Virus record (IMG/VR): IMGVR_UViG_3300027909_000021
DNA from: a virus
Direction: 5' to 3' (one strand)
Length of the DNA: 64,000 nucleotides
Each line of letters begins with the position of its first letter. Within the stretch, counting starts at the first letter, position 1. Below the pieces are notes generated by a model. It was not told where the DNA came from and did no database searches. It saw only the letters and a list, made by a program, of their open reading frames with translations. Of this stretch, positions 41,084 through 56,337 are shown one piece after another. The translations under genes and the position numbers were made by a program.

Positions 41084-42622
41084 TCACCACCGGGTGAAGT
41101 CGTAACCGACACCCAGGCCCTGATCGTGGCGGTTGTCGTGGCTGTAGACGTACGGATCGACGACCTTGGCCCGTTTACGTTCGTTTAGCATGTGCCACCG
41201 GCAGCCGTGGACCATGCCGTCGAGACGGTCCGGGGATTCCCTGTGCGAGTCCCAGCTGATGAACCCAGTCAACTGGTCTTCGAGGCGCTGGAATCGGCCG
41301 ACGAGATGGAACCGGTGCTGCTGGGAACGCATGGCGACAGGTTCGGCTCGGGTCTTCTTGCCGAGTTTCGCGTCGACTGGTTCCAGCGGTGGACTGGTGT
41401 CCATCGGCGCTTCGCCGAGTTTTTGCAGCTCGATCCATGCGTCGCAGAACACTTGGTGCACCCACGATTTGCCAACGTTCGCCTCGTAGATGACCTTGTG
41501 GGCGCCCCACTTCAACATGACGCGCCAGGCGTGCAGGGCGGCTGGGCGCCCGGCGGCCTGAATGGACTCGTCGGCGAGGACCCACAGATGGTCGTCCACC
41601 GTCCGGGCGACCACTACGACACCCATCTCGTCATGGTTGTCGCCGGATCGTCGCCTGTACGCCGAATCGACCACATTGCCCTGATCGTCTACCTGAGCGG
41701 GGTCCACCCCGACAACGATGGAGATGACCCGCAGATCCGGCGGGATCTGCTCAACCCGAGCCGATTCCAGGTCAGCGGCGGAGAACAGGGCACCGTCTTC
41801 GAGTTCCAAGACTTCGCCGTACAGCTCCTGGCGGCCGATCGCGGTGCCTTCGTAACGCTTCTTCAGCTCCCGGGCGGTGTAGGCGGACAGGGACCGGTTT
41901 TCGAAGGTGGCTCCGCGGGCGATGCGGATGGCGTCGGCGATCTCCAGGTTGTCCGACTGGGACTCGGCGAGGAACCGGCGCAGCAGGGGACTATTGGCCT
42001 TGGGGGTAGTGGTGACAAAGATCCGGGGATGGTCCCCCTCGACGTCCACGCGCAACGCCGGAACGATGCCCTCGTCGTAGGAGGCCATGGCGACCGGCCA
42101 CTTGATGAGTTCGTCCAGCCACGCCGAGGCAAGGTTGTGACCTCGACCAACGTCGGCGTCGTCGGCGCCTTCACAGTGCAGCTTGACCCCGTTGGCGAAC
42201 ATGATCATAGGTCGGGGGCTCTGGCGGTACTTGTAGTCGATGTCGCGCAGCAGGCCGCGGCGGGTCAAGGCGTTCAGAACCCCAGAGTCCCCTTCGACGC
42301 AGATGTTCTTGGCGTCGGCGAGAGTCTCCGCGACGATCAGATGCTCGGTGGGGATACCCCCCTTAGACAGTGGATGCAGGATCGCCCGTTCGACGATCCA
42401 CTCGGCGCCCGCCCGGGTCTTGCCCCAGCCGCGGCCGGCCAGGGCCAGGAAGACGAACCAGTTACCGGGCGGCGGCACCTGCGTCGGCCGTGATTCCCAC
42501 CACCAGGCCCCCCGGACGATTTCCTCCAGGACGTCGGCGTCCAGTGAGTGCAGCCAGGTTTCCCGGTCGGCCTTCGGTAGGCAGGCGAACCGTTCCTTGA
42601 GGCTCATCTTGGTGGTGTCCAT
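41084..42622 (-). CDS. terminase large subunit
   Basis: Walker A GRGWGKTRAG and a C-terminal nuclease-like half. It is the first gene of the late block. Confidence 0.85.
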   Translation of the reverse strand: MDTTKMSLKERFACLPKADRETWLHSLDADVLEEIVRGAWWWESRPTQVPPPGNWFVFLALAGRGWGKTRAGAEWIVERAILHPLSKGGIPTEHLIVAETLADAKNICVEGDSGVLNALTRRGLLRDIDYKYRQSPRPMIMFANGVKLHCEGADDADVGRGHNLASAWLDELIKWPVAMASYDEGIVPALRVDVEGDHPRIFVTTTPKANSPLLRRFLAESQSDNLEIADAIRIARGATFENRSLSAYTARELKKRYEGTAIGRQELYGEVLELEDGALFSAADLESARVEQIPPDLRVISIVVGVDPAQVDDQGNVVDSAYRRRSGDNHDEMGVVVVARTVDDHLWVLADESIQAAGRPAALHAWRVMLKWGAHKVIYEANVGKSWVHQVFCDAWIELQKLGEAPMDTSPPLEPVDAKLGKKTRAEPVAMRSQQHRFHLVGRFQRLEDQLTGFISWDSHRESPDRLDGMVHGCRWHMLNERKRAKVVDPYVYSHDNRHDQGLGVGYDFTRW

Positions 42623-42829: not shown

Positions 42830-42901
42830 CGGATACAAGGCCCGGGGTGGGCCACCTGCTTTGGGAGCAGGACATGCGGGGTTCGACACCCTGGTATCCG
42901 A
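42830..42901 (+). tRNA. tRNA-Pro(TGG)
   Basis: Canonical 72-nt cloverleaf. Acceptor CGGATAC/GTATCCG, anticodon loop TTTGGGA, T arm CGGGG-TTCGACA-CCCTG. Confidence 0.85.
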
Positions 42902-42906
42902 CGCAA

Positions 42907-42978
42907 CGCGGTGAGGTGCAGCGGTCGCACAGAGGGCTCATAATCCTCCGTTAGCCGGTTCGACTCCGGTCACCGCCA
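42907..42978 (+). tRNA. tRNA-Met(CAT), initiator-like (1:72 C-C mismatch, A73)
   Basis: 72-nt cloverleaf. Anticodon loop CTCATAA and anticodon stem GAGGG/TCCTC. Confidence 0.75.
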
Positions 42979-42998
42979 CGTATTGACAATTTCATAGC

Positions 42999-43136
42999 GG
43001 TGGTCGGTGCATGGAGGTTCGGTTACTTCAAGCTCTATTGGCAGAGCGTTTCTCTTGTAAAGAAATGGTTCTGGGTTCAAGTCCCAGGAAGATCCGGGAA
43101 ACCGGAAACCCCGCGCCTTGCTCTTCCTCGGCCACC
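42999..43136 (+). ncRNA. Y-RNA-like unit 1 (closing helices plus embedded Thr-like cloverleaf)
   Basis: Helix A is 42999-43006/43129-43136 and helix B is 43015-43022/43111-43118. The loops carry GTGCAT and CTCTTCCT. Inside are a D arm, an anticodon arm (CTTGTAA), a T arm and a GAAA hairpin. Confidence 0.55.
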
Positions 43137-43260
43137 ACTCATGCCCCTGTTGAGTCTTCCTGGCACCAGTTTCTAGAGCTGGACCTCATGGCAGTCCTCG
43201 GCTGAAACCTTCTAGGAGGTGCGCGTCGAATCGCGTGAGGGGCTCGAATACAACTACATA

Positions 43261-43379
43261 CGTTCCAGGTGCATTTGGTTTCGGGTACTTCGCGAGTTCG
43301 ATTCTCGCACCCTCCACCACTTGGGGGGTGGCCCATGGCGGGCAATCTAAATCCCGCGACCGCCTCTTCCTCTGGAACG
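43261..43379 (+). ncRNA. Y-RNA-like unit 2 (YrlA-like permuted tRNA mimic)
   Basis: Helix A is 43261-43268/43372-43379 and helix B is 43277-43285/43353-43361. The T arm is GCGAG-TTCGATT-CTCGC. The acceptor-like hairpin is 43309-43329. Confidence 0.6.
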
Positions 43380-43433
43380 CAAGCTTTCAATCGTCTTCCG
43401 GGACTGATTGACTTTTGAAAACTGAATACGTGC

Positions 43434-43507
43434 GCCCCAGGTGCATAGACTCCGGTTACTTCACTATCACGCTGAGAAAACACCGTGGTCGATTCTTCCT
43501 CTGGGGC
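43434..43507 (+). ncRNA. Y-RNA-like unit 3 (short, no tRNA-like domain)
   Basis: Helix A is 43434-43440/43501-43507 and helix B is 43448-43456/43482-43490. It has the same GTGCAT and TTCTTCCT loops. Confidence 0.55.
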
Positions 43508-43517
43508 TCAAGGCACC

Positions 43518-43665
43518 GTTGCCCGGTGCATTCGACTCCGGTTACTTCAATCCTTTTTGGTAGGGGATGTACCTGGTTCGACTCCAGGCTTGGCCACTCC
43601 TGGCCAAGTAGCTCATCGGATAGAGCGCCTAGAAATACACCGTGGTCACCTCTTCCTCGGGCAAC
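43518..43665 (+). ncRNA. Y-RNA-like unit 4 (YrlA-like permuted tRNA mimic)
   Basis: Helix A is 43518-43525/43658-43665 and helix B is 43534-43542/43639-43647. The T arm is CCTGG-TTCGACT-CCAGG. The acceptor hairpin is CTTGGCC-ACTCCT-GGCCAAG, followed by TA and the D arm GCTC-ATCGGATA-GAGC. Confidence 0.65.
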
Positions 43666-43674
43666 ACACACTTG

Positions 43675-43705
43675 GGCCCCGTCTTTGGACGGGGCCTTTC
43701 TGTTT
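43675..43705 (+). terminator. Intrinsic terminator ending the ncRNA cluster
   Basis: GGCCCCGTC-TTTG-GACGGGGCC followed by TTTCTGTTT. Confidence 0.8.
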
Positions 43706-43729
43706 CACAAAGGAGAGGAGATAGACCGA

Positions 43730-43996
43730 ATGCGGGTAACCAGCAAAAGCATGGCTGAACTGATAGACGCTCTTGACCCCAATGGGACCCGGGTGGGAAA
43801 CGTCAGCTTCAGCTACCGAGTGGCCATGGGCAACAGGGTCCTGGAGACGGAGTTCAACTACGGCCGAGCCCTTGGCTTGACCATTACTACCTGGTCCAGC
43901 GGCTGGTTGATTCGTGACGTTGCCGTCCGAATCGAAGGAGTCGAGCGGGACATCTGCAAGGTCCTTTTGCGGATCGATTACTTGTTCGTCGAGTAA
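43730..43996 (+). CDS. hypothetical protein (88 aa)
   Basis: ATG follows AAAGGAGAGGAG; internal start of ORF 43415-43996. Confidence 0.7.
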   Translation: MRVTSKSMAELIDALDPNGTRVGNVSFSYRVAMGNRVLETEFNYGRALGLTITTWSSGWLIRDVAVRIEGVERDICKVLLRIDYLFVE

Positions 43997-44011
43997 AAGG
44001 AGAATAAGAAA

Positions 44012-44221
44012 ATGGACATCAGCAAATCGGTTAGGAAGGCGGTTGAGCTAGGCACTCTCCGATCCCAGATATCTGCTGTGGAAGAGATGCTCAAGGTGGC
44101 TGATGATCAACTGTCCGGCGACCTGACGACCCAGATGGTCCGCAACGTCATGGCCACGGCCAAGGAGGAATACCTTGCCAAGGTCCAGCAGTGGGCCGAC
44201 CAGAACCGAAAGGAGAAGTGA
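44012..44221 (+). CDS. hypothetical coiled-coil protein (69 aa)
   Basis: Track ORF. AAGGAG lies upstream, and the ORF abuts the rsr start. Confidence 0.65.
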   Translation: MDISKSVRKAVELGTLRSQISAVEEMLKVADDQLSGDLTTQMVRNVMATAKEEYLAKVQQWADQNRKEK

Positions 44222-45844
44222 ATGGCAGGCAAGTTCAATAAGCAGAGCAACCTACAGCGCACGAAGCCTTCAACGCCGGTCCGCACGACCTCGGTCGCAC
44301 CGGACACCGTCACCAATGAGGGTGCGGTCGGCTGGTCGCGGGACCCGAAGTCGGAGCTGTTCCTGCTGGGCGTGGCCAACTTCGTCTCCGAGGACACCTT
44401 CTACGAGGACAAACTGCTGCGTGACAAGCGCTACGACATGCTCGTGACGCAGATCGCGGCCAACGATCCGGCGTGGCTGGAGGGCTTCTTCCCGTGGCTG
44501 CGGTTCGAGGCGAACATGCGCTCGGCCCCGGTCATCGGTGCAGCCATCGCGGCCAAGTCCATGCTCGGCACCAAGGCTCCCGGTGGCCGTCGGATCGTCG
44601 CTGGGTCACTGGGTCGCGCGGACGAGCCAGGCGAGTTCCTGGCGTACTGGATCTCGCGGTGGGGTGACAAGCTGCCCAAGCCGGTCAAGCGTGGCCTGGC
44701 CGACGCGATCGTACGGCTCTACACCCAGCGGAACCTGCTCAAGTACGACATCTCGGGTAAGGGTCTGCGGTTCGCCAACGTGATCAACCTGGTGCACCCG
44801 TCCCCGGCTACGCCGGAGCAGCGTGAGCTGTTCAAGTTCGCGCTGGAGCGGGCGTACAAGGACAACGTGGAGATGCCGGAGTCGCTGAAGGTCGCCAAGG
44901 CGGAGAACGCGTTCCGCAAGGAGATCGCGCAGGCGACGTTCGACTGGGATCACTTCTTCGTCCGGACCGACCGGTCCAACGTCCTGAAGGCTGCGGGTCT
45001 GACGTGGCAGGACTTCCTGCCGCGCGTGCCGGAGCGTTATAAGACGGCGGCGTGGGAGACCCTGATCCCGACGATGGGCTTCCAGGCGCTGCTGACGAAC
45101 CTGCGTAACTTCGACGAGGCGGGGATCTCGCCTGCGGCCCGCAAGCTGGTCACCGACCGGCTCTCGGACCCAGACAAGGTCGCCAAGTCGAAGATGTTCC
45201 CGTTCCGGTTCCTGGTGGCGCACCGTAACGTGCGTTCCCTGAACTGGGGTCCGGCGCTGGAGACGGCTCTGGACGCTTCGCTGGCGAACGTGCCAGAGCT
45301 GCCGGGTCGCACGCTGATTCTGGTGGACCGGTCCGGCTCCATGAACTCGACGATCACGTCCACGCCGAACAAAAAGTCTTGGCGTGACGCGGTGGCCGGT
45401 GTCCGGCTGTCGGAGCTGGCGTCGATCTTCGGTTCGGCTCTGGCGCTGCGTAACATCGGCTCGTCCACCCTGGTCGAGTTCGGTGGCACGTCGCGGGAGA
45501 TCCACTTGCGCAAGGGCGATTCGCTGCTGCGTACGGCGAACCAGAAGTTCACCGGCGACATGGGTGGCACGTATCTGGCGATGGCGGCCCGGAGGCACTT
45601 CAAGGGCCACGACCGGGTCATCGTGATCACCGATGAGCAGTACCACGACGGTGCGGCGGGTTCGGTGGTCCCGGCCAACGTCCCGGTCTACACGTTCAAC
45701 CTGGCGGGCTACTCGGCCGCTGGCGGCATCTCGGGTCAGTCCAACCGGCACACCTTCGGTGGCCTGACGGACAAGGCTTTCAAGCTGATCCCGATGCTGG
45801 AGGCGGCACAGTCGCAGCGGTGGCCGTGGGAGACCGAGGAGTAG
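44222..45844 (+). CDS. rsr: Ro60 ortholog: TROVE domain plus vWA domain
   Basis: 540 aa. It has TROVE-like N-terminal repeats, then LLTNLRNF, MFPFRFL, the MIDAS motif LVDRSGSM, GGT and ITDEQ. This is collinear with human Ro60 LLRNLGKM / IHPFHIL / VDVSASM / GGTD / FTDNE. Confidence 0.85.
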   Translation: MAGKFNKQSNLQRTKPSTPVRTTSVAPDTVTNEGAVGWSRDPKSELFLLGVANFVSEDTFYEDKLLRDKRYDMLVTQIAANDPAWLEGFFPWLRFEANMRSAPVIGAAIAAKSMLGTKAPGGRRIVAGSLGRADEPGEFLAYWISRWGDKLPKPVKRGLADAIVRLYTQRNLLKYDISGKGLRFANVINLVHPSPATPEQRELFKFALERAYKDNVEMPESLKVAKAENAFRKEIAQATFDWDHFFVRTDRSNVLKAAGLTWQDFLPRVPERYKTAAWETLIPTMGFQALLTNLRNFDEAGISPAARKLVTDRLSDPDKVAKSKMFPFRFLVAHRNVRSLNWGPALETALDASLANVPELPGRTLILVDRSGSMNSTITSTPNKKSWRDAVAGVRLSELASIFGSALALRNIGSSTLVEFGGTSREIHLRKGDSLLRTANQKFTGDMGGTYLAMAARRHFKGHDRVIVITDEQYHDGAAGSVVPANVPVYTFNLAGYSAAGGISGQSNRHTFGGLTDKAFKLIPMLEAAQSQRWPWETEE

Positions 45845-45897
45845 CCGATTTGCGCGGGTATTCCTTGCTTATACGTCACTGGGCGATAGGGGGCCGG

Positions 45898-46188
45898 GTG
45901 ACATATCACGTGGAGTTGTGGCAGCAGCCGCTGTGGCGCCGAGCCGTGGCTACCGCGTATCACTGGTACGACATGCGGGTCTTCAAGGTGCCGGGGTTCA
46001 AGATTGTCGAGGGTCTGCTGCTGTGGTGGCAGACGCGTGGTGGTGATCTGGAGATTCCCCTATGCGCCAAGCAAGATCTGCGCTGCTATCGGTTGACCCG
46101 CAAGGGTCGCCGGGATCTGGCCACCGTCGAGGTGGATCAGGAGACCTATCGCCGGCTGGCGAAGGGTTTGGAGCTGCCTTCTGGTTAA
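45898..46188 (+). CDS. hypothetical protein (start uncertain; track ORF begins at 45820)
   Basis: Track ORF. Confidence 0.45.
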   Translation: MTYHVELWQQPLWRRAVATAYHWYDMRVFKVPGFKIVEGLLLWWQTRGGDLEIPLCAKQDLRCYRLTRKGRRDLATVEVDQETYRRLAKGLELPSG

Positions 46189-46197
46189 GTGTTTGGC

Positions 46198-46235
46198 GGT
46201 GACGGGTCCCAGCGTGTACAGTGGGACCTGTCACC
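46198..46235 (+). other. 13-bp stem-loop GGTGACGGGTCCC/GGGACCTGTCACC
   Basis: One G-T pair and a 12-nt loop, with no T-tract. It sits at the start of a ~200-nt non-coding stretch before tRNA-Trp. Confidence 0.6.
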
Positions 46236-46394
46236 AGGACCCACGACTTCTCACCAGCAGGAGGGATCAGGGGTGGTCCCGGGCAGTCGTCGCGTGGCGC
46301 GACCCTGCGGACAGCCACGAAGCGAGGAGGAGCCCTGTAGGGGGTACCTGCTCTGCCAGTCGCCCGGCACTGGTCTCGCAAAAGCCGGGCACCT

Positions 46395-46467
46395 TCGGAC
46401 ATAGCTCAACTGGAAGAGCACCCGTCTCCAAAGCGGGTGGTTGGGGGTTCGAGTCCCTCTGTCCGGG
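46395..46467 (+). tRNA. tRNA-Trp(CCA)
   Basis: 73-nt cloverleaf with anticodon loop CTCCAAA. Strongly resembles E. coli tRNA-Trp in the D and anticodon arms. Confidence 0.85.
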
Positions 46468-46609
46468 CGAGGAAGCCAGGGACGCCTGGTGGAATCAGGT
46501 GGATGAAGGCACCCGATATGTCGTGCTGCGACAGTCGACCAAACAGCGGTGAGGGCAGTGGGGCTAAGACTGTCGACGAGATTCCCGGCCCCCGCCGGAG
46601 TCCACTTCA

Positions 46610-46682
46610 GGGTCCATAGCTCAGACGGAAGAGCGCCCGGTTGAAACCCGGGAGGTCCCAGGTTCGAATCCTGGTGTTCCCA
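46610..46682 (+). tRNA. tRNA-Phe(GAA), acceptor stem with two mismatches
   Basis: Anticodon loop TTGAAAC and T arm CCAGG-TTCGAAT-CCTGG. Acceptor GGGTCCA/TGTTCCC has 4:69 T-T and 5:68 C-T. Confidence 0.6.
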
Positions 46683-46807
46683 CGTAAGGCCAGAGACAGG
46701 TACAACCAGGGGGCGTTAACGCCGACGCTAGACGGCGAAGGACGGCCTTGAGATACGGTCTTGTCGTAAGTAGCCGTACCTGCGCCCCCTGCACCAAACT
46801 GAATCTT

Positions 46808-46890
46808 GGAGAGTGAACCGGGCGGGGCCCGGGGCCGTCTCGAAAACGGTTAGATCCGTAAGGGTTGGGGTTCGAGACCTCCGCTCTCCG
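46808..46890 (+). tRNA. tRNA-Ser(CGA), type II
   Basis: Acceptor GGAGAGT/GCTCTCC, anticodon loop CTCGAAA and a 15-nt variable arm. The D arm is atypical and the T stem has 4 bp. Confidence 0.65.
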
Positions 46891-46895
46891 CGCCA

Positions 46896-46968
46896 GGACC
46901 TGTGGCCAAACGGCAAAGGCGCCCGATCCAAACTCGGGATTTTGGGGGTTCGACTCCCTCCAGGTCTA
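46896..46968 (+). tRNA. type I tRNA with anticodon loop TCCAAAC (C33; reads CAA if numbered canonically)
   Basis: Otherwise a regular 73-nt cloverleaf with A73. Confidence 0.55.
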
Positions 46969-46971
46969 CTT

Positions 46972-47043
46972 GGCTCGATAGCTCAACGGCAGAGCACCAC
47001 CTTGTCAAGGTGGGAGGTGGGGGTTCAAATCCCCTTCGAGTCG
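46972..47043 (+). tRNA. tRNA-Asp(GTC)
   Basis: 72-nt cloverleaf with anticodon loop TTGTCAA. Confidence 0.85.
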
Positions 47044-47143
47044 CGGCGGAGTTAAAGCAGTCGCCACAGGAGTATCCACCTGTGGAAAGAGGCCAAGGGT
47101 CTCGCTATAGGGGGGCCTCTCCCTGAGCCCTGCTCCACCACAT

Positions 47144-47214
47144 TCACCCATAGTGCAACGGCAGCACGGCACGCTCTGGACGTGCAGATCGTGGTTCGAA
47201 TCCATGTGGGTGAG
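47144..47214 (+). tRNA. tRNA-Gln(CTG)
   Basis: 71-nt cloverleaf with a U1-A72 pair and anticodon loop CTCTGGA. Confidence 0.85.
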
Positions 47215-47288
47215 CGCAGCAGATGGCCCCCGTTGGCCCGAGGGGGAGGAAGGCACGCTGTATCGGGCCCTAAAGCAAAGGAGAAGAC

Positions 47289-47456
47289 ATGGCGGCGAAG
47301 CATCGCAAGCCCGGTGACTGGCGGGCCGTTGCCTCCGCCCGCGCCCACGTTCTTCGGATCCTGGTGCGGGGGCACGGACTGACAAACACCCCGGGGATGA
47401 ACGAAACCGGCAGCGCCGCCTACCGGCGGCTGGCGGAAAAGCTGAAGAAGAACTAG
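47289..47456 (+). CDS. small basic protein (55 aa) inside the tRNA array
   Basis: AAAGGAGAAGAC precedes the ATG. Sequence is MAAKHRKPGDWRAVASARAHVLRILVRGHGLTNTPGMNETGSAAYRRLAEKLKKN. Below the track cutoff. Confidence 0.55.
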   Translation: MAAKHRKPGDWRAVASARAHVLRILVRGHGLTNTPGMNETGSAAYRRLAEKLKKN

Positions 47457-47525
47457 CGCGGGCCTTTCGGGGCACCCCAGCGGCGGGACGAGGCCGGATC
47501 ATGCCCGGTAAGTGGAAGCCGCCTT

Positions 47526-47598
47526 TGCTCCATGGCGCAGTTGGCAGCGCAGCTCACTGTTAATGAGATGGTCGCAAGTTCGAATCTTGCTGGAGCAG
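47526..47598 (+). tRNA. tRNA-Asn(GTT)
   Basis: 73-nt cloverleaf with anticodon loop CTGTTAA. Confidence 0.85.
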
Positions 47599-47728
47599 CG
47601 AGATGGAGAGAGTAAGCAAACGTCGTGAGGCGTGCCCGGACCCTAGGGATTGCGAGTCGCTTATGCCTGCCCAGGGGCAGCCCAGCGCTAAGACTCAACC
47701 GGACCTGGGCGACTCTCTTCATCTTGGA

Positions 47729-47801
47729 GCACCTATAGCTCAACTGGAAGAGCAGCTGTCTTACAAGCAGCGGGTTCGAGGTTCGAGTCCTCGTGGGTGT
47801 A
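47729..47801 (+). tRNA. tRNA-Val(TAC)
   Basis: 73-nt cloverleaf with anticodon loop CTTACAA. Confidence 0.85.
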
Positions 47802-47883
47802 CGGCAACGAGGTGGGTCGGGGAGCCTGAAAGCGTCCGGCCGGTCGCCCGTGGAGCGAATCCAAGCCCACCTCGTAGCTGAAT

Positions 47884-47955
47884 GGGTCGGTAGCTCAGAG
47901 GTAGAGCAGGGGACTCTTAATCCCTGTGCCGGGGGTTCGATACCCTCTCGACCCA
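47884..47955 (+). tRNA. tRNA-Lys(CTT)
   Basis: 72-nt cloverleaf with anticodon loop CTCTTAA. Confidence 0.85.
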
Positions 47956-48070
47956 CGGTTCGACACGTTCTTGAAAGGGTGGGTTTCTGCCTAGAGAGTG
48001 TCGTTCAAGGGAGGGGATGGGCGACCCCGGTTAAAGCCAGGGGCAACGTCCAAGTGAACCTCCCGGGCCT

Positions 48071-48144
48071 GTCCTCGTGGCGGAATTGGCATACGCGCTG
48101 GATTCAGAATCCAGTTTCTGGGAGTTCGACTCTCCCCGAGGATA
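48071..48144 (+). tRNA. tRNA-Leu(CAG)-like lacking the long variable arm
   Basis: The D arm and anticodon arm TGGCGGAATTGGCATACGCGCTGGATTCAG closely resemble E. coli tRNA-Leu(CAG), and A73 is present. The variable region is only TTTCT. Confidence 0.65.
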
Positions 48145-48149
48145 CGAAC

Positions 48150-48221
48150 GTGGATGTGGTGTCAACGGCAACACACCTGTCTTCCAAACAGGGGTTCAGG
48201 GTTCGAGTCCCTGCATCCGCA
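48150..48221 (+). tRNA. tRNA-Gly(TCC)
   Basis: 72-nt cloverleaf with anticodon loop CTTCCAA. Confidence 0.85.
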
Positions 48222-48225
48222 CGGA

Positions 48226-48386
48226 AGGGGCGTAGCTCAGTCTGGCTAGAGCAACGGACCCCCACCTGATACGGGGTAGTTGACCGTGGCCGCCTCTGTT
48301 GGACCGAGCGCCGCACGCGGGACGTACGCCGAAAGGCTCCAGGGTGGGGCATCCGCGTGTCGCAGGTTCGAATCCTGCCGCCCCTT
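48226..48386 (+). ncRNA. tRNA-like RNA with a 93-nt insertion in place of the anticodon loop
   Basis: The acceptor AGGGGCG/CGCCCCT, D arm GCTC-AGTCTGGCTA-GAGC and T arm GCAGG-TTCGAAT-CCTGC are all perfect. The anticodon stem ACGGA/TCCGC continues into CCCCACC(48260-48266)/GGTGGGG(48343-48349). Confidence 0.55.
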
Positions 48387-48391
48387 TCTCC

Positions 48392-48464
48392 AGCGTCATG
48401 GCGCAGTGGATAGCGCTCCAGCTTCCGAAGCTGGCGGTCGCGGGTTCGAATCCCGCTGACGCTA
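48392..48464 (+). tRNA. tRNA-Arg(CCG)
   Basis: 73-nt cloverleaf with anticodon loop TTCCGAA. Confidence 0.85.
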
Positions 48465-48465
48465 C

Positions 48466-48544
48466 TAGGGGGAAGGACCTGGTGGTCCGGCCGGTCTGTA
48501 AAACCGGTGCTCGCGCATGGTGGGTTCGATCCCCACTCCCCTAA
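48466..48544 (+). tRNA. tRNA-Tyr(GTA), type II
   Basis: Anticodon loop CTGTAAA, a 12-nt variable arm and T arm GTGGG-TTCGATC-CCCAC. It has a T1-A72 pair and a compact D arm. Confidence 0.7.
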
Positions 48545-48545
48545 C

Positions 48546-48630
48546 GGAGAGGTGCCAGAGCGGCAATGGGACGGGTTGCTAACCCGTAGCCCGGGTGATA
48601 CCGGCGCAGGTTCGATCCCTGCTCTCTCCG
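48546..48630 (+). tRNA. tRNA-Ser(GCT), type II
   Basis: Acceptor GGAGAGG/TCTCTCC, anticodon loop TTGCTAA and a long variable arm. Confidence 0.8.
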
Positions 48631-48633
48631 CAA

Positions 48634-48706
48634 GGCCCTATAGCTCAGCGGATAGAGCAGTGGTTTACGGAACCACGTGCCGCAGGTTCGAATCCTGCTA
48701 GGGTCA
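48634..48706 (+). tRNA. tRNA-Arg(ACG)
   Basis: 73-nt cloverleaf with anticodon loop TTACGGA. Confidence 0.85.
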
Positions 48707-48707
48707 C

Positions 48708-48780
48708 GGCGTCATAGATCAACTGGTAGATCACCTGGTTCTCAGCCAGGAGGGTCGGGGTTCGAGCCCCCGTGACGCTA
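48708..48780 (+). tRNA. tRNA-Glu(CTC)
   Basis: 73-nt cloverleaf with anticodon loop TTCTCAG. Confidence 0.8.
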
Positions 48781-48781
48781 C

Positions 48782-48856
48782 GCCTCCGTAGCTCAGTCTG
48801 GTCAGAGCGGCTGCCTTGTAAGCAGTTGGTCCGGGGTTCGAATCCTCGTGGAGGCC
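48782..48856 (+). tRNA. tRNA-Thr(TGT)
   Basis: 75-nt cloverleaf with anticodon loop CTTGTAA. Confidence 0.85.
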
Positions 48857-48860
48857 CGAA

Positions 48861-48932
48861 GGCCCCGTAGCCGAGTGGTTGAGGCACCAGCCTGCAAAGC
48901 TGGCTACGTCGGTTCAAATCCGGCCGGGGCCT
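48861..48932 (+). tRNA. tRNA-Cys(GCA)
   Basis: 72-nt cloverleaf with anticodon loop CTGCAAA and U73. Confidence 0.85.
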
Positions 48933-48935
48933 CTG

Positions 48936-48999
48936 GGGCCTACACGGTGCCAAGCCCGGATTTGACCGGGTATGGAGGGTTCGATTCCCTCTAGGTCCA
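48936..48999 (+). tRNA. aberrant tRNA-Gln(TTG)-like (64 nt): vestigial D arm, 6- or 8-nt anticodon loop
   Basis: The acceptor GGGCCTA/TAGGTCC and T arm GAGGG-TTCGATT-CCCTC are good. Only ~12 nt lie between the acceptor and the anticodon stem. The anticodon arm is CCCGG-ATTTGA-CCGGG. Confidence 0.45.
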
Positions 49000-49000
49000 C

Positions 49001-49073
49001 GATCCAGTATCCCAATCGGCCGGGGGCGGGACTTTTAATCCCAGGCATGTGGGTTCGAGTCCCACCTGGATCA
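49001..49073 (+). tRNA. tRNA-Lys(TTT)
   Basis: 73-nt cloverleaf with anticodon loop CTTTTAA. Confidence 0.8.
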
Positions 49074-49074
49074 C

Positions 49075-49146
49075 GGAGCCGTGGAGTAATGGCAGCTCAC
49101 CTGCCCTTCAAGCAGGACGGTGCGGGTTCAAATCCCGTCGGCTCTA
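49075..49146 (+). tRNA. tRNA-Glu(TTC) with C33; CCA encoded (49147-49149)
   Basis: 72-nt cloverleaf with anticodon loop CCTTCAA. Confidence 0.75.
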
Positions 49147-49240
49147 CCAGGCGTTAGGTACCGCGGCCCCAGTGGGGTATGGTGGACACGAACAAGGGAG
49201 GCAAGTAACACCAGAGAAAACTTGATCCCGGGAGAAGATC

Positions 49241-49951
49241 ATGGTGAGAGACGCCGACCGCAACCGACAACGGTGGCGGCAACGACGAAACGAATGGGAC
49301 GCCGCGCACCCCATCTGCGCAGACTGCTCAAACACCACCAACCTCAAAGTGGTATGGCGGGGCGAAGGACCCAAACCGTTCCGATCAATGCTGGAAGCGT
49401 TCCGCTGCAACCAAGAATACCGAGACCGGATCCTCGCGCAGTGTGTCAACCTGTGTTACACCTGCTGGCTGGCAACCCGGACCCGCAATCCACACGGCGG
49501 CGGCGCAGCCGGAATCGCCCACTGCAAATGCGCCCCGTGCGTAGACAAGCGCCGAGAGTACAACCGCATCAGCGGGCGCGCACGGCACAAGCGGCTGCAA
49601 GAACGCCGCGAACGGCTCATCGAGAAAGGCGTCGAACCGGGCCCCTACCGCAAGGCCAAGAAGGACCGCAACTCAAACGCCTGGAGCAAGACAGAGCCGG
49701 GACGCGAGTGGCGCCACTCACGGCGACACGACGCGAAACAAGCCTGGCTGGCCGGACGTACCTGCGTCGAGTGCGGTACGGCGGACAAGATCCGCTGTAC
49801 CTGGATCGACCCGCCGGGACCGTTGCCGTCGACTGCACGAATTTGGGCGTGTGGGAAGAAAATGCAGGCGAAATACCTCGAAAAATGTCACACCCTGTGT
49901 GTTTGCTGTCTACGCACGAGGAGCTGGACCACGAGGAGAGAAGGCCAATGA
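49241..49951 (+). CDS. Cys-rich protein with two repeated zinc-binding-like modules (236 aa)
   Basis: GGGAGAAGATC precedes the ATG. The modules C.DC...W..GP.P.....C..LC..C occur twice. Confidence 0.65.
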   Translation: MVRDADRNRQRWRQRRNEWDAAHPICADCSNTTNLKVVWRGEGPKPFRSMLEAFRCNQEYRDRILAQCVNLCYTCWLATRTRNPHGGGAAGIAHCKCAPCVDKRREYNRISGRARHKRLQERRERLIEKGVEPGPYRKAKKDRNSNAWSKTEPGREWRHSRRHDAKQAWLAGRTCVECGTADKIRCTWIDPPGPLPSTARIWACGKKMQAKYLEKCHTLCVCCLRTRSWTTRREGQ

Positions 49952-50949
49952 GCGGCGAGAACTACATCAACCACATCGCGCTGGTACTGGATGCATCCGG
50001 GTCCATGAGCGGGCACCGGCGGTCGGTGATCACCGTCGCCGACAACCTGATGGCGCACCTGGCAAGGCGGTCACAGGAAATGGACCAGGAGACCAGGGTC
50101 ACCGTCTACGTGTTCAGCGACACGGTGAAATGTGCCATCTACGACAAGGACGTGCTGCGTCTGCCGTCGATTGCCACCCTGTACACCGGCGGCGGGATGA
50201 CGGCGCTGATCGACGCCACCGTGCAGTCGATATTGGACCTGGAGCAGACGGCGCAGCTGTACGGCGACCATTCGTTCCTGACGTACGTGCTGACCGACGG
50301 GCAGGAGAACCGCAGCCACAAGTTCAATGCCACCTTGCTGCGGGATCGGCTGGACAGGGCGCCGGAGAACTGGACGTTTGGCGCGTTCGTCCCGGATGCG
50401 CAGGGCGTGTTCGAGGCGAAGCGGTTTGGGTTCCCGGCGGGCAACATCGCCGTGTGGGACACCACGTCGCAGCAGGGTGTAGAAGACGTCGGCAAGCTGA
50501 TCACCGACACCGTCAACAGCTACATGACCGCCCGTGCCTCCGGTATCCGGGGTACCCGCAGCTTGTTCTCCACGGGTGCCGACGCGGTCAACGCGAAGAC
50601 GGTGGCGAAGCTGGCGCCGATGAAGGCGGGCTCGTACTTCTTGGTGCCGGTCCCGAAGGATGCGGTCATCAAGGAGTTCGTGGAGGCGACCGGTAACCAG
50701 TACAGGATCGGCCAGGCGTACTACCAGCTGATGAAGATCGAAACGATCCAGGGCAACAAGGCGCTGGCGGTGGTCGAGAAGGCCACGGCGAAGGTGTTCA
50801 CTGGCACCGGTGTCCGCGGCATGATCGGCCTGTCGGATCTGACGGTGCGGGTGAAGCCGAACCACAACCCGGAGTACGACATCTTCGTTCAGTCGACCAG
50901 CGTCAACCGCAAGTTGATCGCGGGCACGAAGGTGTTGATCCTGCCATGA
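49948..50949 (+). CDS. von Willebrand factor A (vWA) domain protein (333 aa)
   Basis: ATGA-coupled start. MIDAS motif LDASGSM ... GGMTAL ... LTDGQEN. The first ~830 nt of track ORF 49120-50949 are spurious. Confidence 0.8.
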   Translation: MSGENYINHIALVLDASGSMSGHRRSVITVADNLMAHLARRSQEMDQETRVTVYVFSDTVKCAIYDKDVLRLPSIATLYTGGGMTALIDATVQSILDLEQTAQLYGDHSFLTYVLTDGQENRSHKFNATLLRDRLDRAPENWTFGAFVPDAQGVFEAKRFGFPAGNIAVWDTTSQQGVEDVGKLITDTVNSYMTARASGIRGTRSLFSTGADAVNAKTVAKLAPMKAGSYFLVPVPKDAVIKEFVEATGNQYRIGQAYYQLMKIETIQGNKALAVVEKATAKVFTGTGVRGMIGLSDLTVRVKPNHNPEYDIFVQSTSVNRKLIAGTKVLILP

Positions 50950-53103: not shown

Positions 53104-53304
53104 ATGGAGAGTCCAGTGGTGAAGGTCTACATCTTCGCCGGATTCATGACGGTCCTGGCGATTACCGGACTGGCCTGGTTGATCATCGCCAGGTTCGGGC
53201 TGGCAATCTTCCGGACCAAGAAGAAGGAGAAGAATGACCAAGCGACTCCGGTTACCGATCCTCGCCGCAATCGCGGCGGCGATGGTCCTGGCTTCTGGGT
53301 GTAG
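53104..53304 (+). CDS. small membrane protein
   Basis: A hydrophobic helix followed by KKKEK. It overlaps the next gene. Confidence 0.4.
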   Translation: MESPVVKVYIFAGFMTVLAITGLAWLIIARFGLAIFRTKKKEKNDQATPVTDPRRNRGGDGPGFWV

Positions 53305-54199
53305 CACTATCGCGGAACCCGACAAGGTGGGCTTGTACTACATGGAGGGTCCCAGCGACGGCTACGCGTTCAAGAAGTGCATCGAGCCCGGCAAGACCGG
53401 ACCAGCGGAGTGGAACAACTCGGTCGTGTACCTGCCGACGAACCTGCGGACGTGGAACATCGCGCCCGACGGCGGGGACACGGGGGCGGCTGTGGTGGTG
53501 TCCACCCAGCCGGAGACGAACCAGCCTTCCGGTGTCCAGGTGAAGGTCTGGTCGACGACCAGCTTCTACTTGAACACCTTCTGTGATGGGGATGGCGGCA
53601 TCGTCAAGTCGTTCTGGGAGAACATCGGCCGGCGATATGCTGCCGATGGGGATGCGGGCTGGCGCAACATGCTGGTCCAGGTCCTCGTCCCGGCGTTGGA
53701 GAAGGCCACCCAGGACGTGGTTCGCGGGTACACGGCCGATGCGCTCGTCGGCAATGTCGGCGGCGTACGTGCCGAGGCCCAGACCAAGATCAGCAGCCAG
53801 TTCACCGCGGAACTGAAGCGGCTGTCCGGCGGGGACTACTTCTGTGGGCCCGGGTTCAACCGGGCGCAGAAGGAATGCCCCCAGATCGAGATGATCATCC
53901 GCGACGTGGACTACGCCGACCCGGGAATCCAGGACGCGCGTAACGCCAAGCAGAAGGCCATCGAGCTGGCTGCGGCGAAGGTTGCCGAGGCGGAAGGTAA
54001 CGCCAGGGCCGCCCTGGCGCAGGCGTCGGGCGAACTGGCCGCCGCGCAGAAGCGTGGCGCTTTGTACGAGAACAAGGCGTGGGTTCAATTGCAGCTGGCG
54101 GAGAAGCAGTTGGCAGCAGTCGAGGCATGCGCCAAGAGCCAGTCGTGCATCATCAACATGGGCAGTGGCAGCAACCTGCTGCTGACCCCGCAGAAGTAG
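53234..54199 (+). CDS. lipoprotein with SPFH/Band-7-like domain and coiled-coil tail
   Basis: Signal peptide with the lipobox LASGC. The central region and the Ala/Gln-rich coiled coil are typical of the prohibitin/HflK family (judged by eye). Confidence 0.6.
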   Translation: MTKRLRLPILAAIAAAMVLASGCSTIAEPDKVGLYYMEGPSDGYAFKKCIEPGKTGPAEWNNSVVYLPTNLRTWNIAPDGGDTGAAVVVSTQPETNQPSGVQVKVWSTTSFYLNTFCDGDGGIVKSFWENIGRRYAADGDAGWRNMLVQVLVPALEKATQDVVRGYTADALVGNVGGVRAEAQTKISSQFTAELKRLSGGDYFCGPGFNRAQKECPQIEMIIRDVDYADPGIQDARNAKQKAIELAAAKVAEAEGNARAALAQASGELAAAQKRGALYENKAWVQLQLAEKQLAAVEACAKSQSCIINMGSGSNLLLTPQK

Positions 54200-56151: not shown

Positions 56152-56337
56152 TTACTGGTCGAACTGACCGTCTTTGATCGCGGCGATGAACGTGGCCCAC
56201 TCATCCCGACTGAACCAGATGACATCGGCGGGCATGTGGCTGTTACGTACGCCGACGTGCTCGGCTTCGCTGCGCGGGTCGAAAGCCACCTCGACACATT
56301 CGCCGGCGGAACACCCCGTCGGCTTGATCCAGTTCAT
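56152..56337 (-). CDS. DUF397 domain protein
   Basis: CSAGECVEVAF......VGVRNS......FSRDEWATFIAAIKDGQFD is a clear DUF397 pattern. Confidence 0.75.
   Translation of the reverse strand: MNWIKPTGCSAGECVEVAFDPRSEAEHVGVRNSHMPADVIWFSRDEWATFIAAIKDGQFDQ

What the first reader, a model, noticed from the sequence alone, without database searches (positions are those of the whole stretch)
42830..50949. RNA island: tRNA array, Y-like RNAs, Ro60, Cys-rich protein and vWA protein as one rightward module
Everything from tRNA-Pro (42830) to the vWA gene (ends 50949) is on one strand. The module is transcribed divergently from the terminase operon. It contains about 23 tRNAs, four Y-like RNAs, rsr (TROVE plus vWA), a 55-aa basic ORF inside the array, and a translationally coupled pair made of a double zinc-module protein and a vWA protein. 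In bacteria Rsr/Y RNA works in RNA quality control, tethering PNPase, and often sits beside the RtcB repair genes. By inference, this phage module could survey, protect or recycle tRNAs during infection, for example against host anticodon nucleases. No ligase or kinase repair enzyme is visible in the window.
Basis: inference. Interest (0 to 1): 0.75.

Follow-up and report, generated by a model that had tools for sequence, protein, structure and literature searches.

The report
Phage Ro60/Y-RNA locus inside a tRNA array
An uncultivated soil actinophage carries a Ro60 (Rsr) gene with four tRNA-mimicking Y RNAs inside a 22-gene tRNA array; this layout is already seen in sequenced phages, and the two downstream proteins are travelling cargo, not proven partners.

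Summary
All features from 42830 to 50949 are on the + strand, divergent from the large terminase subunit gene (TerL). They comprise 22 canonical tRNAs plus 2 odd tRNA-like elements, four Y-like RNAs, rsr (TROVE+vWA), a conserved 55-aa basic ORF, and an ATGA-overlapped Cys-rich/vWA gene pair. No RNA ligase or kinase was detected.

The core is a YrlA-class Ro60/Y RNA system, known in phages since 2014. A covariance model built here finds 124 such RNAs next to rsr in 90 sources, with strong covariation. Rsr inside large tRNA arrays recurs in sequenced phages (BRock, GiJojo, Atuin), often with an RNA ligase.

It is not one operon: a conserved strong terminator separates the Y RNAs from rsr.

The Cys-rich protein is a lineage-restricted tandem HNH derivative. 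Both modules have lost the catalytic histidine.

The vWA protein belongs to a large family (phrog_26613).
- In phages it is often embedded in tRNA arrays, and 15 of 80 loci have Rsr within 10 kb.
- Only 4 of 80 Rsr loci carry it.
- It is a stand-alone gene in Streptomyces chromosomes without tRNAs (Rsr nearby in only 1 of 80 loci).

The "single tRNA-surveillance module" reading is therefore only partly supported. This is a new member of a known kind, of moderate interest.

The parts
41084..42622 (-). Terminase large subunit (TerL); left boundary, transcribed divergently from the island
   Evidence: Pfam Terminase_6N 2.2e-15; 82% aa identity to the L005 homologue
42830..42977 (+). tRNA-Pro(UGG) and tRNA-Met(CAU), first genes of the rightward unit that also holds the Y RNAs
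   Evidence: ARAGORN. Rfam scores the tRNA-Met at 46.2 bits; tRNA-Pro was not listed by Rfam
42997..43141 (+). Y RNA 1. An Rsr-binding stem encloses a native-order tRNA cloverleaf (D arm, anticodon-like arm with UGU, T arm, only a 4-bp acceptor)
   Evidence: Rfam tRNA 44.6 bits at 43026-43091. All 35 of 35 hand-drawn pairs are kept in both the window and L005, with compensatory changes in three stems. Model R2 finds the same type upstream of rsr in L159, L168 and L124
43261..43379 (+). Y RNA 2. T arm plus an 8-bp acceptor hairpin whose loop carries ..ACCA, then a small hairpin; YrlA-like
   Evidence: Fold z-score -3.3; R1 39.3 bits, full length; Rfam tmRNA and permuted-tmRNA tRNA-like-domain hits, and a weak YrlA hit
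43434..43507 (+). Y RNA 3. Short, Rsr-binding module only, no tRNA-like domain (YrlB-like)
   Evidence: Shares the 5' GGUGCAU..CGGUUACUUC and 3' UCUUCCUC motifs and the same stem/loop/stem fold
43518..43665 (+). Y RNA 4. Canonical YrlA type (T arm, acceptor hairpin, D arm, closed by the Rsr-binding stem)
   Evidence: Rfam YrlA 33 bits, below the gathering score of 69. R1 120.8 bits. Family covariation: 95.5% of cells paired against 68% in shuffles
43674..43707 (+). Intrinsic terminator ending the tRNA/Y RNA unit before the rsr genes
   Evidence: 10-bp stem, 8 GC pairs, T tail. An equivalent hairpin plus T run is present in L005, BRock and Kradal
43730..43996 (+). 88-aa ORF of unknown function; not conserved in L005
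   Evidence: Called in the source metagenome; no family hits; no tblastn match in L005
44012..44221 (+). 69-aa ORF abutting the rsr start (TGA then ATG); conserved in L005
   Evidence: 60% aa identity in L005; sequence; no family hits
44222..45844 (+). rsr: Ro60 orthologue (TROVE HEAT-repeat ring plus C-terminal vWA with a DxSxS MIDAS motif)
   Evidence: Pfam TROVE 4.4e-16 and VWA_2; phrog_850 7.4e-41; PDB 9L5Y/9KOP phage Ro60 1.7e-22. 48% identity to the BRock 'RNA-binding protein'. D369, S371 and S373 are invariant among 9 orthologues
45898..46188 (+). 96-aa ORF downstream of rsr (alternative starts at 45850 and 45820); function unknown
   Evidence: Gene calls of 96 and 112 aa in source contigs; no family hits
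46395..49149 (+). Main tRNA array: 20 canonical tRNAs
   Evidence: ARAGORN and Rfam
47289..47456 (+). 55-aa basic ORF embedded in the array
   Evidence: 69% aa identity in L005; translation; called in source contigs
48225..48388 (+). tRNA-like element with intact acceptor, D and T arms. The anticodon loop is replaced by a ~90-nt structured arm
   Evidence: Rfam tRNA 43.4 bits spanning 161 nt; sequence and fold; the insert has no homologue in any fetched locus
48936..49000 (+). tRNA-Gln(UUG)-like element with a reduced D arm
   Evidence: Read from the sequence; only weak Rfam hits; not called by ARAGORN
49241..49951 (+). 236-aa basic Cys-rich protein: two HNH-derived zinc modules with the catalytic His replaced by Trp (W39, W188)
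   Evidence: phrog_4234 'HNH endonuclease' 3.3e-14 in two stretches. Weak tblastn hit to PegLeg gp96 HNH, which itself lies between tRNAs. Conserved Cys/Trp pattern. Only 4 homologues. AF2 pLDDT 75; Foldseek hits to HNH nucleases are not significant
49948..50949 (+). 333-aa vWA/MIDAS protein with a C-terminal beta-rich domain; member of phrog_26613
   Evidence: phrog_26613 2.5e-95. Pfam VWA 21.8 bits, just below the cut-off of 23.8. AF2 pLDDT 86; Foldseek finds integrin I and complement vWA domains. 3694 homologues. DxSxS..T..D is invariant or nearly so

Best explanation
The region is an accessory 'RNA island' of an uncultivated actinophage. It is built from separable units, not one operon.

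Unit 1 (42830-43707) holds tRNA-Pro, tRNA-Met and four Y RNAs, and ends in a strong terminator.

Unit 2 holds two small ORFs, rsr and one more ORF.

Unit 3 is a 20-tRNA array with an embedded 55-aa ORF and two aberrant tRNA-like genes.

Unit 4 is a catalytically dead tandem-HNH protein translationally coupled to a vWA/MIDAS protein.

Shown here:
- rsr is a Ro60 orthologue.
- The four RNAs belong to the YrlA/YrlB class of bacterial and phage Y RNAs. They share one Rsr-binding stem/internal-loop/stem module and differ in their tRNA-like effector modules.

Inferred from established Ro60 biology (Chen et al. 2014, PMC4201824; Thermus phage phiLo, PMC12135203): the Y RNAs bind the outer face of the Rsr ring, gate its cavity, and tether a host 3'-5' exonuclease (PNPase). 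Misfolded or damaged structured RNAs are then threaded and trimmed or degraded. The tRNA-like modules make the Y RNAs substrates or ligands of tRNA enzymes (RNase P, the CCA-adding enzyme).

The most likely reasons for the recurrent placement inside tRNA arrays are:
- shared tRNA ancestry,
- shared expression and processing,
- a role in turnover or quality control of the phage's own abundant structured RNAs.

The dead-HNH protein and the vWA protein are mobile cargo that often lodges in phage tRNA arrays. Their link to Rsr is statistical, not obligate.
For: Rsr identity.

Y RNA class:
- The four RNAs share a common fold.
- The GGTTACTTC motif lies upstream of Ro in BRock, GiJojo and Kradal. 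The degenerate form GG[TC]TAC[TC]TC lies near Rsr in 71 of 80 IMG/VR Rsr loci.
- Model R1 finds 124 full-length hits at E<1e-7, almost all directly upstream of rsr on the same strand.
- Covariation: 95.5% of cells paired against 68% in shuffles and 40-50% in slid controls, with 611 double-change cells.

[quoted passage not shown] Phage Ro60 plus two upstream Y RNA-like sequences bind host PNPase.

Separate units: terminator, conserved in relatives.

Rsr in tRNA arrays.

Cargo nature of the vWA and Cys-rich proteins.
Against: - No expression, RNA end or binding data exist for this phage.
- The canonical GNCGAA motif of YrlA reads GUGCAU here. Rfam YrlA scores only 33 bits against a gathering score of 69.
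- 60 of 80 Rsr loci have fewer than 3 tRNAs within 10 kb, so a tRNA-linked role is not general.
- The enrichment of the vWA gene near tRNAs and Rsr could reflect a real functional tie that I am discounting.
- The loci are phylogenetically non-independent, and no formal control set was run.
Confidence: 0.6

Rival explanations
1. First reader's model. Everything from 42830 to 50949 is one integrated tRNA surveillance or repair module. Rsr/Y RNPs, the zinc-module protein and the vWA protein cooperate to protect or recycle phage and host tRNAs, for example against anticodon nucleases.
For: - The full synteny is kept in L005.
- The vWA gene is embedded in ~30-tRNA arrays downstream of Rsr in L016/L017 and L018. 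It lies 0.46 kb from Rsr in L020.
- It is flanked by Rnl1-type and Rnl2-type ligases, PNKP and RlaP in L007.
- It lies next to an RF-1-domain gene in L019.
- 15 of 80 vWA loci have Rsr within 10 kb, and 16 of 80 have a tRNA within 300 bp.
- An RNA ligase lies in 9 of 80 Rsr loci, mostly (8 of the 9) those with big tRNA arrays.
Against: - Only 4 of 80 Rsr loci have the vWA gene.
- 37 of 80 vWA loci have no tRNA within 10 kb.
- 80 of 80 top Streptomyces chromosomal vWA loci lack tRNA arrays and have non-conserved neighbours; Rsr is present in 1 of 80.
- The upstream partner of the vWA gene is not conserved, and the Cys-rich family has only 4 members.
- A terminator lies between the Y RNAs and rsr.
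- No ligase or kinase is present in the window.
- The vWA protein shows only generic similarity to the Rsr vWA domain.
Confidence: 0.17
2. Positional coincidence only. tRNA arrays and the divergent TerL-proximal intergenic region are insertion hot spots for accessory genes. Rsr/Y RNAs act on host RNA metabolism (for example by hijacking PNPase, as proposed for phage phiLo) with no functional relation to the neighbouring tRNAs.
For: - Most Rsr loci lack tRNA arrays.
- The array size differs sharply between close relatives: 22 tRNAs here against about 6 in L005.
- Arrays host unrelated cargo: an HNH gene between tRNAs in PegLeg; thioredoxin, a 'stress protein' and a CobT-like vWA protein in BRock and GiJojo.
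- A TerL(-)|island|vWA layout recurs with variable filling.
- The phiLo paper proposes PNPase hijack.
Against: - Rsr sits inside arrays in at least three distinct actinophage groups. The tRNAs are almost all on the same strand as the query gene, as measured at the vWA loci.
- The Y RNAs are themselves tRNA mimics, and in this window they appear to share a terminator-bounded unit with tRNA-Pro and tRNA-Met (inferred from the sequence and the single terminator).
- RNA ligase co-occurs in these arrays.
Confidence: 0.2
3. Decoy model. The Y RNAs soak up or sense host tRNA-targeting nucleases or tRNA-modifying enzymes, with Rsr stabilising them. Y1, which has a complete anticodon-like arm, is the main candidate.
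For: - Y1 keeps a 7-nt anticodon-like loop (CUUGUAA) and stem through compensatory changes between the window and L005.
- The same native-order type recurs in L159, L168 and L124.
- YrlA RNAs are known substrates of tRNA enzymes.
Against: - The 'anticodon' differs among Y1-type RNAs, so no specific tRNA is mimicked.
- The type is rare, seen in about 5 of 90 sources.
- There is no evidence of any cognate nuclease.
Confidence: 0.08

Closest known systems
Bacterial and phage Ro60 (Rsr) with YrlA/YrlB Y RNAs (Chen et al. 2014, RNA 20:1715; Rfam RF02553)
   Same: - A TROVE+vWA protein.
- Several Y RNAs encoded within 1.3 kb upstream on the same strand.
- At least one Y RNA has a permuted tRNA-like domain (T arm, acceptor hairpin, D arm).
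- A long acceptor hairpin as in M. smegmatis YrlA; Y2 additionally carries an encoded ..ACCA in the hairpin loop.
- A short YrlB-like RNA is present (Y3).
   Different: - There are four RNAs rather than one or two.
- The Rsr-binding loop reads GUGCAU rather than GNCGAA.
- The Rfam score is below the gathering threshold.
- One RNA (Y1) carries a native-order cloverleaf with an anticodon-like arm.
- There is no rtcBA operon and no RtcR.
Streptomyces phages BRock and GiJojo (Borockvirus-like) and Arthrobacter phage Atuin: 'Ro-like RNA binding protein' inside tRNA arrays
   Same: - Rsr is 42-48% identical.
- It is embedded in arrays of 23 to about 35 tRNAs on one strand.
- BRock has four Y RNAs with the GGTTACTTC motif and a terminator upstream of Ro.
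- Small ORFs are interspersed.
   Different: - BRock and GiJojo end the array with an RNA ligase; the window has none.
- They lack the phrog_26613 vWA gene near Ro. GiJojo has a CobT-like vWA protein instead.
- There is no DNA-level similarity.
Thermus phage phiLo Ro60 with Yrl1/Yrl2 (NAR 2025, PDB 9KOP/9L5Y)
   Same: A phage Ro60 with upstream Y RNA-like genes. Sequence match 1.7e-22. Proposed recruitment of host PNPase.
   Different: Two Y RNA-like sequences and, as far as reported, no tRNA array context. A distant host lineage.
Salmonella rsr-yrlBA-rtcBA RNA repair operon (Hughes et al. 2020, PMC7790460)
   Same: Rsr and Y RNAs are genomically tied to tRNA damage and repair biology.
   Different: No RtcB, RtcA or RtcR is present here. 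The setting is a phage, not a chromosome.
HNH endonucleases lodged in actinophage tRNA arrays (for example Mycobacterium phage PegLeg gp96)
   Same: A CxxC...CxxC zinc scaffold and a C-terminal HG..CxCxxC motif. Location at or inside a tRNA array.
   Different: The domain is duplicated in tandem. The catalytic His is replaced by Trp in both modules. The final His is replaced by Trp or Leu. Probably a binder, not a nuclease.
phrog_26613 vWA proteins (Myrna gp18, Kradal gp156, Streptomyces 'vWA domain-containing protein')
   Same: 39-59% identical full-length homologues of 333-363 aa, with a complete MIDAS motif.
   Different: None has a known function. Contexts range from tRNA arrays to a tailspike neighbourhood to solitary chromosomal genes.

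Membership tests
Ro60/Rsr (TROVE + vWA) | TROVE (HEAT-repeat ring) domain | tested here: met
   Pfam PF05731 4.4e-16, 59.5 bits against a cut-off of 23. phrog_850 aligns over residues 21-539
Ro60/Rsr (TROVE + vWA) | C-terminal vWA domain with a MIDAS DxSxS motif | tested here: met
   VWA_2 aligns over residues 364-472, at 19 bits (sub-threshold). D369, S371 and S373 are invariant in 9 orthologues
Ro60/Rsr (TROVE + vWA) | Homology to an experimentally solved Ro60 | tested here: met
   9L5Y/9KOP phage phiLo Ro60, E 1.7e-22. NCBIfam Rsr equivalog only 18 bits against a cut-off of 900, so this is not the enterobacterial equivalog
Ro60/Rsr (TROVE + vWA) | Binds Y RNA; ring threads RNA 3' ends | not testable with these tools
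   Needs biochemistry
YrlA-class Y RNA (RF02553) | Encoded within about 4 kb of rsr on the same strand | tested here: met
   The RNAs lie 0.56-1.2 kb upstream on the + strand
YrlA-class Y RNA (RF02553) | 5' and 3' ends pair into a stem/internal-loop/stem module carrying the conserved Ro-binding 5' strand | tested here: met
   All four RNAs and their L005 orthologues fold this way. The inner stem covaries across 120 distinct sequences
YrlA-class Y RNA (RF02553) | GNCGAA(N)G motif in the Ro-binding region | tested here: not met
   The window has GGUGCAU(N)G. BRock, Kradal and L018 have GGUGCGA(A/C)
YrlA-class Y RNA (RF02553) | tRNA-like domain: T arm, acceptor-like hairpin, D arm | tested here: met
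   Y4 aligns to Rfam YrlA model positions 24-84. In 120 sequences the T, acceptor and D helices are 96-99% paired, with many compensatory changes. Y2 matches partly, Y3 lacks the domain, and Y1 has a native-order cloverleaf
YrlA-class Y RNA (RF02553) | Reaches the Rfam gathering score | tested here: not met
   Best hit 33 bits against 69. The custom model R1 gives 120.8 bits
Rsr-Rtc RNA repair operon | RtcB or another RNA ligase, and end-healing enzymes, adjacent | tested here: not met
   No Rnl1, Rnl2, PNKP, RlaP or CCA-adding homologue is found in the window. Pfam on 30 ORFs found none. RtcB itself was not queried by sequence
HNH endonuclease (His-Me finger) | Sequence and fold similarity to HNH families | tested here: met
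   phrog_4234 3.3e-14 in two stretches. Each module has beta-beta-alpha elements in the AF2 model. The Foldseek top hits are HNH nucleases but are not significant
HNH endonuclease (His-Me finger) | Catalytic His (the 'DH' of the first strand) and the metal-ligand His/Asn | tested here: not met
   By eye against PegLeg gp96, the catalytic 'DH' dipeptide corresponds to VW in module 1 and TW in module 2 (His replaced by W39 and W188). The terminal His is replaced by W76 and L224. All are invariant in the 4 family members
vWA / MIDAS domain protein | Rossmann-like vWA fold with DxSxS...T...D | tested here: met
   AF2 pLDDT 86. Foldseek finds integrin I and complement vWA domains at E ~1e-7. S17, S19, T85 and D117 are invariant and D15 nearly so. 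Pfam VWA 21.8 bits against a cut-off of 23.8
Phage tRNA array | At least 10 co-oriented tRNA genes in tandem covering many amino acids | tested here: met
   22 tRNAs on the + strand cover 17 amino acids; Ala, His and Ile are missing

The most novel reading that the evidence does not exclude
The phrog_26613 vWA protein is an unrecognised protein component of phage tRNA and RNA-maintenance islands. It would work with Rsr/Y RNPs, or with RNA ligase/PNKP where Rsr is absent. The unusual Y RNA repertoire here would let the phage sense or buffer attacks on the tRNA pool. That repertoire comprises a native-order cloverleaf Y RNA with an anticodon-like arm, plus a separate tRNA-like gene whose anticodon loop is replaced by a 90-nt arm.
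Probability: 0.15. Interest if true: 0.7.

Novelty: new member of a known kind. Interest (0 to 1): 0.4.

Why it matters
What phage Ro60/Y RNPs do is still unknown.

This locus and the survey around it give concrete, testable material:
- Rsr recurs inside large tRNA arrays of actinophages, sometimes with RNA ligases.
- Y RNA clusters of 4-6 genes, ended by their own terminator, are common.
- A custom covariance model recovers these RNAs where Rfam's threshold misses them.
- Standard pipelines mis-annotate the tRNA-like domains of Y RNAs as tRNA genes.

The survey also flags a very large, highly conserved vWA family of unknown function. That family is enriched in phage tRNA arrays yet solitary in Streptomyces chromosomes.

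None of this overturns current understanding. It extends a known system into a new lineage and narrows which neighbours deserve experiments.

Tried and rejected
- The 609-aa ORF at 49120-50949 as a single gene. Rejected by frame-specific GC3.
- The Cys-rich and vWA proteins as a conserved pair. Myrna gp17 is unrelated. Upstream neighbours of 64 vWA genes form no family.
- The vWA protein as a paralogue of the Rsr vWA domain. hhalign probability is only 28%.
- Function of the vWA C-terminal domain. Foldseek against PDB and BFVD returned only generic vWA hits. The ArnAB/Sec23-24 and Ku80 matches have poor TM scores. PDB sequence searches for both proteins were empty.
- PADLOC defence models. No hits.
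- A recurrent 'tRNA-Thr(UGU)' next to Rsr as a conserved feature. Rejected. ARAGORN calls inside Y RNAs carry many different 'anticodons' and mostly overlap YrlA-type hits.
- Homologues of the 90-nt insert in the tRNA-like element at 48225-48388. None found in roughly 180 loci.
- A near DNA relative among 50,697 phage records. None found.
- Burroughs & Aravind 2016 (NAR 44:8525) and two Wolin reviews could not be read. My mention of SPFH/Band-7 and TROVE as RNA-repair scaffolds rests on memory of that paper.
- Absence of Rsr in Myrna and Phabba cannot be claimed. Cluster C1 mycobacteriophage Ro proteins, known from the literature, were also not detected by that search.

Full report
**Source and setting.** The window has 63% G+C and a phage structural module on the - strand, ending with the portal gene (38670-40580) and TerL (41084-42622). 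No phage in INPHARED is similar at the DNA level. The identical genes occur on soil and rhizosphere metagenome contigs of up to 70.5 kb. Independent gene calls there match the gene models used here. The protein relatives are actinophages of Streptomyces, Arthrobacter, Gordonia and Mycobacterium.

**Checking the observation.**
- ARAGORN finds 22 tRNAs, all on the + strand: Pro and Met at 42830-42977, and 20 more at 46395-49149.
- Rfam confirms 19 of them at gathering score and adds two items. One is a tRNA-like domain at 43026-43091. The other is a 161-nt 'tRNA' at 48226-48386.
- rsr (44222-45844) hits TROVE at 4.4e-16, VWA_2, phrog_850 at 7e-41, and the solved Ro60 of Thermus phage phiLo at 1.7e-22.
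- Frame-specific GC3 shows that 49241-49951 and 49948-50949 are two genes and that the 609-aa ORF is spurious. The two genes overlap by ATGA.
- The 55-aa ORF at 47289-47456 is basic and 69% identical in a relative.
- No RNA ligase, PNKP, CCA-adding enzyme or RF-1 homologue was found in the window.
A strong intrinsic terminator at 43674-43697 follows the fourth Y RNA, so the region is not a single operon.

**The Y RNAs.** The four RNAs share 5' GGUGCAU...CGGUUACUUC and 3' ...CUCUUCCUCGG sequences. All four, and their orthologues in the IMG/VR relative L005, fold the same way:
- an 8-9-bp closing stem;
- an asymmetric internal loop;
- a 4+4-bp inner stem;
- a variable module.

The variable modules differ:
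- Y4 carries the YrlA arrangement (T arm, acceptor hairpin, D arm). It aligns to Rfam YrlA positions 24-84, but at only 33 bits against a gathering score of 69.
- Y2 has a T arm and an 8-bp acceptor hairpin with ACCA in its loop. This recalls M. smegmatis YrlA, which is cut by RNase P and CCA-tailed.
- Y3 lacks a tRNA-like module.
- Y1 encloses a native-order cloverleaf with an anticodon-like arm (Rfam tRNA 44.6 bits). All 35 pairs are kept in L005, with compensatory changes in three stems.

The GGTTACTTC motif also lies upstream of Ro in BRock (which has four Y RNAs), GiJojo and Kradal.

I built a covariance model (R1) from six seeds. In 90 sources it finds 124 full-length matches at E<1e-7, nearly all immediately upstream of rsr on the same strand. 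On that alignment 95.5% of cells pair, against 68% in shuffles and 40-50% in slid controls, with 611 double-change cells. The alignment is fitted to the model, so these counts lean towards the structure.

A second model (R2), built for the Y1 type, finds the same architecture upstream of rsr in L159, L168 and L124, with different 'anticodons'.

This places the RNAs firmly in the known YrlA/YrlB class. Chen et al. [quoted passage not shown] A 2025 study characterised a phage Ro60 with two upstream Y RNA-like sequences and host PNPase binding.

**Is it one module? The synteny test.**
- The closest relative, L005, has Rsr at 76%, TerL at 82% and vWA at 75% identity. It keeps the order TerL(-) | tRNA-Met, four Y RNAs, terminator, small ORFs, rsr, tRNAs, orf55, Cys-rich ORFs, vWA.
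- L005 differs in two ways. It has only about 6 tRNAs, and its Cys-rich gene is split into two divergent one-module ORFs.
- Further out, Rsr sits inside arrays of 23 to about 35 tRNAs in BRock, GiJojo and Atuin. In BRock and GiJojo an RNA ligase lies at the array end.
- Among 80 IMG/VR Rsr loci: 20 have at least 3 tRNAs within 10 kb, 12 have at least 10, 9 have an Rnl1-like ligase, and only 4 have the vWA gene.

**The vWA protein.**
- It matches phrog_26613 at 2.5e-95 and has 3694 homologues, typically about 334 aa and 57-60% identical.
- The AF2 model (pLDDT 86) shows an N-terminal MIDAS vWA domain and a C-terminal beta-rich domain. Foldseek recognises only the vWA part.
- Phage contexts are suggestive:
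  - embedded in ~30-tRNA arrays downstream of Rsr (L016/L017, L018);
  - 0.46 kb from Rsr (L020);
  - between two RNA ligases and a PNKP (L007);
  - next to an RF-1-domain gene (L019);
  - 3.6 kb from the CCA-adding enzyme in Myrna.
- Across 80 IMG/VR vWA loci: 43 have at least 3 tRNAs within 10 kb, 16 have a tRNA within 300 bp, 12 have tRNAs on both sides within 1 kb, and 15 have Rsr. But 37 have no tRNA at all.
- In bacterial genomes the family has at least 587 matches. The top 80 are Streptomyces (and close-relative) genome loci with no tRNA arrays, Rsr in 1 of 80, and essentially no conserved neighbours.
- One 90%-identity cluster spans many species and is annotated only as 'vWA domain-containing protein'.
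- The protein is therefore an autonomous, mobile gene that often lodges in phage tRNA arrays. An obligate partnership with Rsr is excluded. A facultative one is not.

**The Cys-rich protein.**
- It has only four homologues.
- It hits phrog_4234 'HNH endonuclease' twice.
- It weakly matches PegLeg gp96, an HNH gene that itself lies between tRNAs.
- Comparing the sequences by eye shows that the catalytic His is replaced by Trp in both modules and the terminal His by Trp or Leu. These changes are invariant in the family.
- The AF2 model (pLDDT 75) has beta-beta-alpha elements. Foldseek's top hits are HNH nucleases but are not significant.
- It is best read as a basic, inactivated tandem-HNH nucleic-acid binder that is specific to this lineage. 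It is not the conserved upstream neighbour of vWA genes.

**Mechanism.**
- Shown: an Rsr orthologue, and four structurally supported Y RNAs that appear, from the sequence, to share a terminator-bounded unit with two tRNAs.
- Inferred from established Ro60 biology: the Y RNAs dock on Rsr, gate its cavity and tether host PNPase to process structured RNA. The tRNA-like modules engage tRNA enzymes.
- Plausible but untested: this activity services the phage tRNA pool. The support is the recurrent array context and the ligase co-occurrence. The counter-evidence is that most Rsr loci lack arrays and that this phage lacks repair enzymes.

**Verdict.**
- The system is a new member of a known kind: a phage Ro60/YrlA locus in a tRNA array.
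- Three modestly new details emerge: a native-order cloverleaf Y RNA subtype, a tRNA-like gene with a 90-nt arm in place of the anticodon loop, and the statistical affinity of a large unknown-function vWA family for phage tRNA arrays.

Noticed in passing
window 48225-48388: A tRNA-like gene with good acceptor (7 bp), D and T arms. Its anticodon loop is replaced by a ~90-nt structured arm. It is too short for a group I intron. Topologically it is the circular permutation of a YrlA RNA. The insert has no homologue in any fetched locus.
   Followed up: partly
window 48936-49000: A tRNA-Gln(UUG)-like element between tRNA-Cys and tRNA-Lys with a reduced D arm. ARAGORN misses it and Rfam tRNA scores it sub-threshold. 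It may be a degenerate or unconventional tRNA.
   Followed up: no
window 46935-47005, 48362-48421, 48606-48659, 49049-49103: The YrlA-type model R1 also scores junctions between adjacent tRNAs (the T arm of one, then the D arm of the next). This suggests a simple origin of permuted YrlA domains from tandem tRNA genes.
   Followed up: no
L004 7757-7906 (GiJojo gene 29); L014 4636-4778 (VanLee gene 125); L015 4044-4213 (CcrColossus tRNA-Gln); many IMG/VR loci about 100 nt upstream of rsr: Published annotations and ARAGORN call the tRNA-like domains of Y RNAs as ordinary tRNA genes with assorted anticodons. These calls overlap full-length Y RNA model hits.
   Followed up: partly
L181-L260 (Streptomyces genomes); window 49948-50949: The vWA protein has homologues of about 344 aa at 53-57% identity (up to ~60% by the tblastn panel) in hundreds of Streptomyces genomes. 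They are solitary genes with non-conserved neighbours, some seen to lie near chromosome ends. One 90%-identity cluster spans many species. Its function is unknown.
   Followed up: partly
window 53234-54199: An SPFH/Band-7 protein lies 2.3 kb downstream of the vWA gene (Pfam 23.5 bits against a cut-off of 23.6). It is conserved in L005. Band-7 homologues also lie near vWA genes in L006, L032, L034, L038 and L081. From memory of Burroughs & Aravind 2016, SPFH proteins have been proposed as RNA-repair scaffolds.
   Followed up: no
window 46214-46233 and 48008-48070: A 20-nt stretch after rsr/orfC is identical in L005. It sits in a hairpin containing TGTACAGT. A 63-nt leader upstream of tRNA-Leu(CAG) is 90% identical in L005. 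Both may be promoter or processing signals for the array.
   Followed up: no
window ~43400-43425; L005 ~8850-8868 and ~9270-9290; L018 530-545, 688-700, 1005-1020, 1135-1150: A short motif (TTGAAAACTGAATAC, or CAACTGAA / CAACTACA) recurs about 8-12 nt before the 5' stem of several Y RNAs in different phages. It may be a promoter element or a processing site.
   Followed up: no
L007 6954-16973: A metagenomic phage contig carries the vWA gene between an Rnl1-type ligase, a second RNA ligase (PHA02142-like), a PNKP (kinase plus HAD phosphatase) and an RlaP nucleotidyltransferase. This is a compact RNA-repair cluster without tRNAs or Rsr.
   Followed up: partly
window 12638-13219; 56334-59087; 62567-63109: Other annotatable genes in the window are an endonuclease VII, a Prim-Pol/D5 primase-helicase and a DUF6197 protein.
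   Followed up: no
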